From the IMG/VR virus record IMGVR_UViG_2681813004_000023: a stretch of DNA of 7,566 nt; one strand, 5' to 3'. A model generated the notes under the pieces. The model ran no database searches. It was not told the origin of the DNA and saw only the letters and a list, made by a program, of their open reading frames with translations. Shown piece by piece: positions 3,182 through 4,190 of this stretch (position 1 is its first letter; every line of letters starts with the position of its first letter). The stretch is from a virus. Lineage: Duplodnaviria > Heunggongvirae > Uroviricota > Caudoviricetes. The position numbers and the translations under genes are program-made.

Positions 3182-3937
3182 ATGAGTAAAGTCTTTATTT
3201 GCGCCGCCATTCCGGACGAACAGGCAATAAAGGAAGAAGGTGCAGTCGCTGTAGCCACTGCCATTGAAGCCGGTGATGAATGTCGCGCCCGCGCAAAATT
3301 TCACTGGCAATTCCTGGAACATTATCCGGCTGCTCAGGACTGCGCTTATAAATTTATTGTCTGCGAGGATAAACCTGGCATACCCCGCCCTGCCCTCGAT
3401 TCATGGGATGCTGAATATATGCAGGAAAACCGCTGGGATGAGGATTCTGCTTCTTTTGTCCCGGTTGAGACTGAATCCGATCCGATGAACGTCACTTTTG
3501 ACAAGCTGGCCCCTGAAGTACAGAACGCTGTCATGGTTAAGTTCGACACATGTGAAAACATCACCGTTGATATGGTGATTAGCGCACAGGAATTGTTGCA
3601 GGAAGACATGGCAACATTCGACGGACATATCGTTGAAGCGTTGATGAAAATGCCAGAAGTTAACGCCATGTATCCGGAGCTTAAGCTGCATGCCATCGGG
3701 TGGGTTAAGCATAAATGTAAGCCTGGTGCCAAATGGCCCGAAATTCAGGCAGAGATGCGCATCTGGAAAAAACGTCGCGAAGGTGAACGCAAGGAAACCG
3801 GAAAATACACGTCTGTCCGCGCCAGAGTCCACCGACAGCACACTGAAAACTCAGCAGAAAAAATCCCCCCTGTCACTGCAGTCATTCGTCGCGAATATAA
3901 GCAGAGTGGAAGCGTTGATGAAAATGCCAGAAGTTAA
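3182..3937 (+). CDS. N-terminal portion of the exonuclease gene (251 aa), ending 10 codons into the second repeat copy; probably a frameshift-split fragment of one ancestral gene
   Basis: ORF track 3182..3937. Its last ~90 residues (VEALMKMPEVNAMYPELKLHAIGWVKHKCKPGAKWPEIQAEMRIWKKRREGERKETGKYTSV...) are repeated in-frame at the start of the downstream ORF; after copy 1 the frame runs out of register into copy 2 and stops at 3935-3937. Confidence 0.55.
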   Translation: MSKVFICAAIPDEQAIKEEGAVAVATAIEAGDECRARAKFHWQFLEHYPAAQDCAYKFIVCEDKPGIPRPALDSWDAEYMQENRWDEDSASFVPVETESDPMNVTFDKLAPEVQNAVMVKFDTCENITVDMVISAQELLQEDMATFDGHIVEALMKMPEVNAMYPELKLHAIGWVKHKCKPGAKWPEIQAEMRIWKKRREGERKETGKYTSVRARVHRQHTENSAEKIPPVTAVIRREYKQSGSVDENARS

Positions 3938-4190
3938 CGCCATGTATCCGGAGCTTAAGCTGCATGCCATCGGGTGGGTTAAGCATAAATGTAAGCCTGG
4001 TGCCAAATGGCCCGAAATTCAGGCAGAGATGCGCATCTGGAAAAAACGTCGCGAAGGTGAACGCAAGGAAACCGGAAAATACACGTCTGTTGTTGATCTC
4101 GCCCGCGCCAGAGTCAATCAACAGCACACTGAAAATTCAACAGGAAAAATCAGCCTGGTCATTGCTGCCATTCATCGCGAATACAAGCAG
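3632..4190 (+). repeat. Tandem direct duplication inside the exonuclease gene: copy 1 about 3632-3904, copy 2 about 3906-4190, period 274 bp
   Basis: 182 bp are identical between 3635-3816 and 3909-4090. The tails are about 80% identical, by substitutions only and in frame (3817-3904 vs 4103-4190), with an extra 12 nt (4091-4102) in copy 2. A period of 274 is not a multiple of 3, so copy 2 is in the +1 frame relative to copy 1. Confidence 0.9.

What the first reader, a model, noticed from the sequence alone, without database searches (positions are those of the whole stretch)
3632..4190. Diverged tandem duplication of a ~91-95 codon module splits the exonuclease gene into two overlapping ORFs
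The two copies share a 182-bp block of perfect identity but their 3' tails differ at about 20% of positions, all substitutions and all in frame. That pattern looks less like a fresh slippage duplication and more like recombination or gene conversion between two diverged alleles. The 274-bp period puts copy 2 in the +1 frame, so ORF 3182..3937 ends inside copy 2 and the exonuclease body must restart at ATG 3918/3924 or be made by frameshifting. Outcomes to distinguish: pseudogenisation, two separate polypeptides (N-terminal module and nuclease), or an assembly artefact at a repeat.
Basis: seen in the sequence. Interest (0 to 1): 0.75.

Follow-up and report, generated by a model that had tools for sequence, protein, structure and literature searches.

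The report
Chimeric duplication splits prophage exonuclease gene
One E. coli draft genome carries an extra 274-base stretch inside a prophage exonuclease gene, partly copied from a sister version of that gene, which breaks the reading frame; this is an ordinary strain-private gene disruption, or possibly an assembly error.

Summary
The repeat is real in the sequence. Copy 1 is 3632-3905 (274 nt) and copy 2 is 3906-4191 (286 nt). They share a 182-nt perfect block.

The gene is the full-length ydfE-type exonuclease of a Qin-like prophage at rspB, the last long gene of the dicBF operon. Deleting copy 1 restores a 2472-nt, 823-codon gene that aligns without gaps to natural alleles.

All 15 tail differences are pre-existing allele differences. 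Copy 1's tail is identical to the EDL933-type allele and copy 2's tail to the FORC064-type allele. So this is a chimera of two paralogous prophage alleles, not duplication followed by point-mutation divergence.

The junction, the 12-nt deletion and a T>G at 3908 were found nowhere else. I searched 5,426 complete E. coli genomes, GTDB representatives, JGI metagenomes and IMG/VR. The 251-aa ORF occurs on one contig only.

The frameshift leaves an N-domain ORF and a 669-aa ORF with no good ribosome-binding site. The most likely reading is a private pseudogenising event made with a co-resident paralogue (about 0.5). An assembly artefact cannot be excluded without the reads (about 0.33). Interest is low.

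The parts
3182..3937 (+). ORF1, 251 aa (WP_058101510.1). It holds the N-terminal domain of the ydfE-type exonuclease, then copy 1 of the module, then 10 out-of-frame residues (SGSVDENARS) and a TAA stop.
   Evidence: the AF2 model of the natural N-terminus places the N-domain at about residues 1-223
3632..3905 (+). Copy 1 of the module (274 nt). This is the extra DNA: deleting it restores the canonical 2472-nt gene.
3635..3816 (+). 182-nt block that is perfectly identical to 3909-4090 (the 'head'). It is also identical in many natural alleles of both tail types.
3816..3817 (+). Private 12-nt in-frame deletion joint. TGTTGATCTCGC is missing here (net loss of V213-A216). The joint was found in no other sequence searched.
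   Evidence: positive control for the undeleted sequence
3817..3905 (+). Copy 1 tail. It is 100% identical to the EDL933-type ('type B') allele tail and differs from copy 2's tail at 15 of 89 positions.
3905..3908 (+). Novel tail-to-head junction, ...AAGCAGA|GTGGAAGCG.... It includes a private T>G at 3908; all 65 natural loci examined have GTT.
3906..4191 (+). Copy 2 of the module (286 nt). It is in frame with the rest of the gene. Its 4103-4191 tail is 100% identical to the FORC064-type ('type A') allele.
3918..5927 (+). ORF2, 669 aa as called in the source assembly. It holds part of the N-domain, the linker, the second domain, a Q/E/N-rich linker, a Cys-rich motif and the DEDDh 3'-5' exonuclease. 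The start has a weak SD match (-3.3 kcal/mol, the median for ATGs in the window). It overlaps ORF1 by 20 nt.
3690..5927 (+). Longest open frame, 745 aa. It begins at an ATG with a GGAG Shine-Dalgarno match (-5.8 kcal/mol). It reads copy 1 out of frame for 72 codons and then copy 2 in frame.
5379..5894 (+). PF16473 (Rv2179c-like) DEDDh 3'-5' exonuclease domain, ORF2 residues 488-659. Motifs are DLET, NFD and HNALDD. It is distantly similar to T4 DexA.

Best explanation
The window is the early-left (dicBF) operon of a Qin-like lambdoid prophage integrated next to rspB in one E. coli strain. Its last long gene is the full-length form of K-12 ydfE, normally 823 codons. The protein has an N-terminal domain, a disordered linker, a second helical domain, a long low-complexity linker and a DEDDh 3'-5' exonuclease.

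In this strain, 274 extra bases sit inside that gene. They consist of the 89-nt linker-coding 'tail' of a different natural allele (EDL933 type), which is typically carried by another lambdoid prophage in the same cell. That tail is followed by a re-copied 185-nt 'head'.

The most economical origin is a single error-prone, non-homologous event. It could be two template switches during replication or repair, or illegitimate joining between the resident allele and a co-resident paralogue. Such an event would leave the three private scars seen here: a 12-nt skip, a blunt tail-to-head junction and a T>G.

Because 274 is not a multiple of 3, the gene is frameshifted. ORF1 (251 aa) keeps the complete N-domain. 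The nuclease part can only be made from weak internal starts. Functionally this is a strain-private pseudogenisation of an accessory prophage gene that decays often.

Shown here: the anatomy, the allele origin of each part, the uniqueness of the variant and the frame consequences. Inferred: the template-switch mechanism, the presence of a type-B allele in the same genome, and the loss of function.
For: Repeat anatomy:
- Two abutting copies with a 182-nt perfect block, a 12-nt indel and 15 tail substitutions.

Restoring the gene:
- Deleting copy 1 gives a 2472-nt ORF that is ungapped against natural alleles, best 98.9% to strain MB06102 at the same rspB site.
- From window 3906 onward (L003 3908-9429, offset +2), 5,522 nt align without any gap at 99.46% to that strain. 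Base-level quality around the repeat therefore looks good.

Allele origin:
- Copy 1's tail has 0 mismatches to 12 type-B loci. Copy 2's tail has 0 mismatches to 32 other loci.
- Head plus tail of copy 1 equals natural loci L033 and L037 apart from the 12-nt gap.
- The upstream flank (3401-3631) is not type B: it shows 7 or more mismatches to those type-B loci but 0 to type-A loci. The type-B DNA is therefore a short patch.
- The gene family is a patchwork of exchanged segments, with intermediate tail haplotypes present.

Paralogues are available as donors:
- 4,788 of 5,426 complete genomes carry the gene, with a median of 2 and up to 10 copies.
- Both tail types co-occur in single genomes, for example O121 RM8352.

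Uniqueness:
- No contiguous match to the junction, and none to the deletion joint, with a working positive control.
- ORF1 lies on one contig only.

The gene decays in other strains:
- K-12 ydfE is cut by IS2E.
- Other alleles carry deletions and frameshifts, and one has an independent 135-nt tandem duplication in the same region.

Translation:
- ATG 3918 has only a median-strength SD match.
Against: - The variant is seen in a single draft assembly whose contig starts only 3.6 kb upstream, inside the same prophage. That is the setting in which paralogous prophage copies get mis-joined.
- Three private oddities cluster around a patch derived from a paralogue. This could equally be the signature of two overlapping contig ends joined without merging, or of a wrongly closed gap.
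- I could not read the rest of the assembly to show that a type-B allele is present in that genome. No reads are available.
- The template-switch mechanism is an inference. There is no clear microhomology at either joint.
- Loss of function is inferred only from the frame and from SD strength.
Confidence: 0.5

Rival explanations
1. Assembly artefact or mis-phased paralogues. The strain has single-copy genes of two allele types in different prophages. The assembler, scaffolder or gap-closer then joined two overlapping contig ends without merging them, or inserted reads from the paralogue. That would create an apparent tandem duplication with error-laden joints. A variant of this idea: a real duplication exists, but in the other (type-B) prophage, and it was threaded into this contig through the 185-nt shared block.
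For: - The variant is private to one draft contig among 153 billion gene positions and every DNA collection scanned.
- The contig begins 2 nt before the window, inside the prophage ydaT gene.
- The gene is multi-copy in most E. coli genomes. Very many 'partial' entries show that it routinely breaks draft assemblies.
- The inserted tail is exactly a paralogous allele.
- All three private changes sit at the edges of that patch.
Against: - The junction and the deletion joint are novel sequences that exist in no natural allele. Simple mis-traversal of an assembly graph cannot create them, so reads containing them, or a joining step, are needed.
- The surrounding 5.5 kb has no indel relative to the closest same-site prophage.
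- All other genes in the locus are intact.
- A clean tandem duplication in the same region exists in another strain, so real duplications do occur here.
Confidence: 0.33
2. Functional gene fission. The duplication is real and yields two working polypeptides. One is a 251-aa N-domain protein. The other is a protein of about 74 kDa carrying the second domain and the exonuclease, made by termination-reinitiation at ATG 3918, from ATG 3690, or by a +1 ribosomal frameshift near 3906-3937 that gives a fusion with two modules.
For: - The split falls at a domain boundary. The AF2 model has the N-domain at about 1-223, a disordered linker at 223-237 (pLDDT below 50) and the second domain from about 247.
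- Remote homologues match either residues 3-221 or 238-336 independently.
- ORF1 keeps the whole N-domain and ORF2 keeps everything downstream.
- ORF1's stop lies 17 nt after ATG 3918, which would allow translational coupling.
- ATG 3690 has a GGAG Shine-Dalgarno match.
Against: - The arrangement is not conserved. Every other allele examined is a single in-frame gene or a differently damaged one.
- The SD match at 3918 is only median for the window.
- I saw no recognisable +1 frameshift signal by eye, and I did not scan for one systematically.
- ORF2 would carry an orphan fragment of about 70 aa from the N-domain.
- K-12 tolerates complete loss of the nuclease part.
Confidence: 0.08
3. An old simple tandem duplication whose two copies then diverged by point mutation.
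For: Only the bare fact that the tails differ by 17%.
Against: - All 15 differences match two pre-existing natural haplotypes exactly, while the 182-nt head has none.
- No related genome carries the duplication. An old duplication should be shared by relatives.
Confidence: 0.01

Closest known systems
E. coli K-12 Qin prophage ydfE (b1577, pseudogene)
   Same: It is the same gene in the same operon and at the same chromosomal site: dicC/dicA-type immunity region, ydfA-ydfB-ydfC-dicF-dicB-ydfD-ydfE-int, next to rspB-rspA. In both cases only an N-terminal fragment of about 250 codons stays in frame.
   Different: In K-12 the gene is cut by IS2E at about nt 765 and the nuclease part is deleted. 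Here a 274-nt chimeric duplication frameshifts the gene and the nuclease part is still present. The immunity region also differs: a LexA-like cI here, DicA in K-12.
Intact single-copy prophage 'exonuclease' alleles (MB06102 WP_447312176.1, FORC064 WP_024232529.1, EDL933 WP_000048551.1)
   Same: They are 823-codon genes collinear with the window's gene once copy 1 is removed, at 98.9% for the best match. FORC064 supplies the exact copy 2 tail type and EDL933 the exact copy 1 tail type.
   Different: They have one copy of the module, no 12-nt deletion, and GTT rather than GTG at the module start.
In-frame 135-nt tandem duplication in E. coli BDKE01000159.1 (protein P0031)
   Same: It is an independent tandem duplication that starts 14-18 nt upstream of the window's unit start in the same gene.
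   Different: It is near-perfect (1 mismatch in 135 nt), 45 codons long, in frame and made from a single allele. It has no paralogue-derived patch and no deletion.
Mosaic exchange among co-resident lambdoid prophages, and template-switch (FoSTeS/MMBIR-type) complex duplications (my own knowledge of the literature, not tested here)
   Same: Short patches from a paralogue, non-homologous joints, and small deletions or substitutions at the joints.
   Different: The mechanism cannot be demonstrated from one sequence, and no clear microhomology is present at the joints.
Phage T4 DexA (PDB 8KEL/8KEN) and the E. coli DexA homologue EcD (PMC12153337)
   Same: The C-terminal DEDDh domain matches DexA at E = 1.4e-6 over residues 643-776 of the restored protein.
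   Different: DexA and EcD are small single-domain proteins. This gene has about 640 additional N-terminal residues. I did not examine 5hmC specificity or the oligomerisation residues.

Membership tests
Tandem (head-to-tail) duplication | Two directly abutting copies of the same unit, with similarity far above chance | tested here: met
   Copy 1 ends at 3905 and copy 2 starts at 3906. There is a 182-nt perfect block, and 258 of the 274 aligned positions are identical.
Tandem (head-to-tail) duplication | Both copies derive from the same template, so differences arise only after duplication | tested here: not met
   The tails are two different pre-existing alleles, matching at 15 of 15 sites. 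This is a chimeric duplication, not a simple one.
ydfE-type prophage exonuclease (YdfE_N / YdfE_C + PF16473) | PF16473 DEDDh 3'-5' exonuclease domain above Pfam's gathering score | tested here: met
   226 bits against a cut-off of 27, covering profile positions 2-177 of 177. The DLET, NFD and HNALDD motifs are visible in the translation.
ydfE-type prophage exonuclease (YdfE_N / YdfE_C + PF16473) | YdfE_N (PF27430) and YdfE_C (PF27432) N-terminal regions | tested here: met
   Precomputed hits are on record for ORF1 (both families) and ORF2 (YdfE_C). The local Pfam copy lacks these newer models, so my own scan returned nothing for ORF1.
ydfE-type prophage exonuclease (YdfE_N / YdfE_C + PF16473) | Position after dicF-dicB-ydfD and before xis/int of a lambdoid prophage | tested here: met
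   DicF lies at 2487-2538. The gene order agrees.
RecE / exodeoxyribonuclease VIII (the name given in some phage records) | RecE-type nuclease domain | tested here: not met
   A Pfam scan of the intact 823-aa allele finds only PF16473 and RNase_T. The 'exonuclease VIII' labels on hits H41 and H45 look like carried-over names.
Programmed ribosomal frameshift gene | The two-frame arrangement is conserved among homologues | tested here: not met
   Homologues are single in-frame 2472-nt ORFs in thousands of genomes. The two-frame layout is seen on one contig only.
Programmed ribosomal frameshift gene | Recognisable slippery or shifty site with a stimulator in the overlap (3906-3937) | not tested
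   I inspected the sequence only by eye and saw no known +1 signal. I ran no dedicated scan.
Assembly artefact (unmerged overlap or mis-closed gap) | No sequencing read spans the joints, and coverage is inconsistent with two copies | not testable with these tools
Only circumstantial evidence is available.
T4 DexA-like (HREX) exonuclease | Sequence homology to DexA | tested here: met
   8kel_A at E = 1.4e-6, residues 643-776.
T4 DexA-like (HREX) exonuclease | Conserved 5hmC-recognition residues (Trp and Asp/Glu) and the oligomerisation residues described in PMC12153337 | not tested
   I read the paper but did not align these residues.

The most novel reading that the evidence does not exclude
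The locus is a real, freshly captured one-step template-switch event between two co-resident prophage paralogues. It happens to cut the gene at its inter-domain linker, producing a natural gene fission in which both halves (the N-domain protein and the second-domain-plus-exonuclease protein) are expressed and functional.
Probability: 0.07. Interest if true: 0.4.

Novelty: new member of a known kind. Interest (0 to 1): 0.13.

Why it matters
The significance is modest.

If the duplication is real, it is a clean, datable example of how paralogous lambdoid prophages in one cell exchange short patches and damage each other's genes. The break falls at a domain linker.

It also shows that RefSeq protein WP_058101510.1 ('hypothetical protein') is the front half of a disrupted exonuclease gene.

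If it is an artefact, it is a useful warning. The signature to watch for in draft assemblies is a tandem duplication with diverged tails inside a multi-copy prophage gene.

Neither outcome changes what is understood about the gene family or about phage biology.

Tried and rejected
- **Divergence after duplication:** rejected. All 15 tail differences are pre-existing allele states.
- **Single unequal crossover between a type-B parent (5' side) and a type-A parent (3' side):** not supported by the alleles in hand. The flank just upstream of copy 1 (3401-3631) has 7 or more mismatches to every type-B locus that covers it and 0 to type-A loci. The type-B DNA is therefore only a short patch.
- **A natural donor allele already carrying the 12-nt deletion, or GTG at the unit start:** none found in complete E. 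coli genomes, GTDB representatives, JGI metagenomes, IMG/VR or 65 panel loci.
- **The module as a native internal repeat of the protein:** rejected. BLASTP of the module against the restored protein gave no second hit better than E = 0.95.
- **Microhomology at the joints:** only weak candidates were seen by eye, GACAT and (T)GAA near the unit ends. Neither reproduces the observed junction without extra changes.
- **Literature on the source assembly (AOTC01 / GCA_001447405):** nothing found. The sequencing technology is unknown.
- **Fold of the N-terminal 337 residues:** the AF2 model is good (pLDDT 85.7), but Foldseek against the PDB gave nothing better than E = 0.87. No functional clue came from this.
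- **Local Pfam scan of ORF1:** returned nothing, because the copy lacks the newer YdfE_N and YdfE_C models.
- **Locus L002:** it was slow to appear as a file for scripts, so I compared it first through DNA alignment.

Full report
**What is in the sequence**

The repeat finder reports a 185-nt direct repeat (3632-3816 / 3906-4090, 99%) with spacing 274. Immediately after it comes an 89-nt repeat (3817-3905 / 4103-4191, 83%) with spacing 286.

A global alignment shows two abutting copies. Copy 1 is 3632-3905 (274 nt) and copy 2 is 3906-4191 (286 nt). They differ in three ways:
- one base near the start, 3634 T versus 3908 G (GTT versus GTG, both Val);
- a 12-nt stretch, TGTTGATCTCGC, present only in copy 2 (4091-4102);
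- 15 substitutions in the last 89 nt, giving 9 non-synonymous and 3 synonymous codon changes.

Both 3632 and 3906 begin codons in their own frames, and 274 mod 3 = 1. ORF 3182..3937 (251 aa) therefore reads copy 1 in frame, then 10 junk codons, and stops at 3935. The +1 frame is open from 3690 to 5927, with ATGs at 3918 and 3924 inside copy 2.

**What the gene and locus are**

An exact-protein look-up places the window on contig AOTC01000307.1 (227 kb) of E. coli draft assembly GCA_001447405.1. The window starts 2 nt from the contig end.

The gene order is ydaT, cro, a LexA-like repressor, DUF1391, ydfB-like, ydfC-like, DicF sRNA (2487-2538, Rfam 76.7 bits), dicB, DUF1482/ydfD, the split exonuclease, xis, int, and then rspB-rspA. 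This is the layout of the K-12 Qin prophage. In K-12 the corresponding gene, ydfE, is a pseudogene cut by IS2E.

Domain content:
- ORF2 and intact alleles carry a full-length PF16473 DEDDh 3'-5' exonuclease domain (226 bits). That domain is distantly similar to T4 DexA (8KEL, E = 1.4e-6).
- Precomputed Pfam hits give YdfE_N and YdfE_C for the N-terminal part.
- There is no RecE-type domain, so the 'exonuclease VIII' labels in some phage records are misnomers.

**The ancestral state is single copy**

Against 5,426 complete E. coli genomes, the 1-kb region around the repeat always maps to a 727-bp stretch of the record, that is 1001 minus 274, inside an intact 'exonuclease' CDS.

With copy 1 deleted, the gene is 2472 nt. 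It aligns as one ungapped piece to natural 2472-nt genes. The best match is 98.9%, to strain MB06102, whose prophage sits at the same rspB site.

From window 3906 (L003 3908) onward, 5,522 nt align to that strain without a single gap at 99.46%.

The gene is present in 4,788 of 5,426 genomes, with a median of 2 and up to 10 copies per genome.

**Where the two copies come from**

I aligned the window with three natural alleles: FORC064, EDL933 (the ompW-site prophage) and MB06102.
- All 15 tail differences are allele differences. Copy 1's tail is identical to EDL933's and copy 2's tail is identical to FORC064's.
- In a panel of 62 IMG/VR prophage loci plus the E. coli loci, 12 loci have exactly copy 1's tail and 32 other loci have exactly copy 2's. 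Several intermediate haplotypes also exist.
- Two type-B loci (L033, L037) match copy 1's head and tail with zero mismatches apart from the 12-nt gap.
- The flank just upstream of copy 1 (3401-3631) is not type B. It has 7 or more mismatches to the type-B loci and 0 to type-A loci.

The type-B DNA is therefore a short patch embedded in an otherwise type-A / MB06102-like gene. The family as a whole is a patchwork of exchanged segments.

This excludes duplication followed by point-mutation divergence.

**How unique it is**

- A 100-nt query across the junction finds only two-piece, permuted matches in complete genomes, never a contiguous one.
- The 34-nt junction is absent from GTDB species representatives, JGI metagenome contigs and IMG/VR.
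- The best matches to the 12-nt deletion joint all carry the 12 nt. The 28-nt joint is absent from the same three collections. The undeleted sequence is found 62 times in IMG/VR, which serves as a positive control.
- None of 65 natural loci has GTG at the unit start.
- ORF1 (WP_058101510.1, 'hypothetical protein') lies on one contig among 153 billion gene positions.

**Consequences for the protein**

I made an AlphaFold2 model of a natural N-terminal 337-residue fragment (P0036, 99% identical to the restored protein), using 35 sequences that included remote homologues. Mean pLDDT is 85.7.

The model shows an N-domain at about residues 1-223, a disordered linker at 223-237 (pLDDT below 50) and a second helical domain from about 247. 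Remote homologues match either residues 3-221 or 238-336 independently.

The duplicated unit covers residues 151-245. That is the last helices of the N-domain plus the linker. The diverged 'tail' is the linker, which explains its high non-synonymous variability.

ORF1 therefore keeps a complete N-domain with 4 residues missing. ORF2 keeps everything from the linker onward, plus an orphan N-domain fragment of about 70 aa.

ATG 3918 has an SD-like pairing of only -3.3 kcal/mol, the median for all ATGs in the window. ATG 3690 has GGAG (-5.8 kcal/mol) but reads 72 junk codons first. Nothing indicates programmed frameshifting, and the arrangement is not conserved.

**Interpretation**

The anatomy is a chimeric 274-nt insertion with three private scars. 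The two serious explanations are as follows.

(a) A real, recent, error-prone event involving a co-resident paralogous prophage allele, through template switching or illegitimate joining, that pseudogenises the gene.

(b) An assembly or scaffolding artefact that mixes paralogues.

For (a):
- The joints are novel sequences that graph mis-traversal cannot invent.
- The neighbourhood has no indels relative to its closest relative.
- The gene is demonstrably dispensable and decays in many ways. Examples are IS2E in K-12, deletions and frameshifts in P0113, P0035, P0043 and P0134, and an independent near-perfect 135-nt in-frame tandem duplication in the same region of another strain.

For (b):
- The variant occurs in a single draft assembly.
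- The contig ends inside the same prophage.
- The gene is a notorious contig-breaker.
- All the oddities sit at the edges of the paralogue patch.

I put (a) at about 0.5, (b) at about 0.33, and a functional two-polypeptide outcome at under 0.1. Reads or a PCR product (701 versus 427 bp across 3560-4260) would settle it.

**Novelty and interest**

This is a new instance of a well-known kind of event: mosaic recombination and pseudogenisation in lambdoid prophages, or else a known kind of artefact. A specialist would not be surprised, and no open question becomes testable through it. Interest is about 0.13.

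Noticed in passing
window 2487-2538 (+): DicF sRNA (Rfam RF00039, 76.7 bits against a gathering score of 48). The window is therefore the dicBF operon of a Qin-like prophage integrated beside rspB/rspA, with a LexA-like cI repressor in place of K-12's DicA.
   Followed up: partly
L005 4434-4703 (E. coli GCA_005380845.1, BDKE01000159.1; protein P0031): An independent, near-perfect (1 mismatch), in-frame 135-nt (45-codon) tandem duplication in the same part of the same gene, starting 14-18 nt upstream of the window's unit start. 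It hints that this conserved head region may be duplication-prone. The same ORF also ends in an out-of-frame tail within the Q/E/N-rich repeat region.
   Followed up: partly
L068 4079-4999 (K-12 MG1655 ydfE, b1577): K-12's ydfE pseudogene is cut by IS2E at about nt 765 of the gene, only about 29 nt beyond the end of the module duplicated here. Two independent disruptions thus leave an N-terminal fragment of about 250 codons. This may be coincidence.
   Followed up: no
proteins P0113, P0035, P0043, P0134: Other E. coli alleles of this gene carry different internal deletions or frameshifts, so the gene is frequently degraded in cryptic prophages.
   Followed up: no
window 4979-5069 (+): A 21-nt tandem repeat (4.3 copies, 74% matches) encodes the Q/E/N/P-rich low-complexity linker upstream of a CxxC...CxxC motif and the exonuclease domain.
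   Followed up: no
window 5379-5894 (+): The C-terminal DEDDh exonuclease domain is a distant homologue of phage T4 DexA (8KEL, E = 1.4e-6). A 2025 paper (PMC12153337) reports that an E. coli DexA homologue (EcD) degrades 5hmC-modified T4 DNA and protects against T4. Whether this prophage gene does the same was not examined.
   Followed up: partly
restored protein residues 1-337 (window 3182-3631 plus 3906-4466): A confident AF2 model (pLDDT 85.7) shows two domains joined by a disordered linker. It has no significant structural match in the PDB (best Foldseek E = 0.87), so the N-terminal two-thirds of this very common prophage protein has no known fold relative.
   Followed up: partly
window 2548-2566 / 2677-2695: A 19-nt inverted repeat (95% complementary, 110 nt apart) lies in the DicF-dicB intergenic region.
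   Followed up: no
window 3690 and 3964 (+1 frame): The ATG preceded by GGAG inside the module opens a +1-frame ORF. In copy 2, as in natural alleles, it is a 157-aa overlapping ORF (3964..4437). In copy 1 it fuses to the main frame, giving the 745-aa ORF 3690..5927.
   Followed up: partly
phage records H41 (Tritos) and H45 (PhiR42_1): The orthologous gene is annotated 'exonuclease VIII / exodeoxyribonuclease VIII' in some phage records, although it has no RecE-type domain. Its domain is PF16473, a DEDDh exonuclease.
   Followed up: partly
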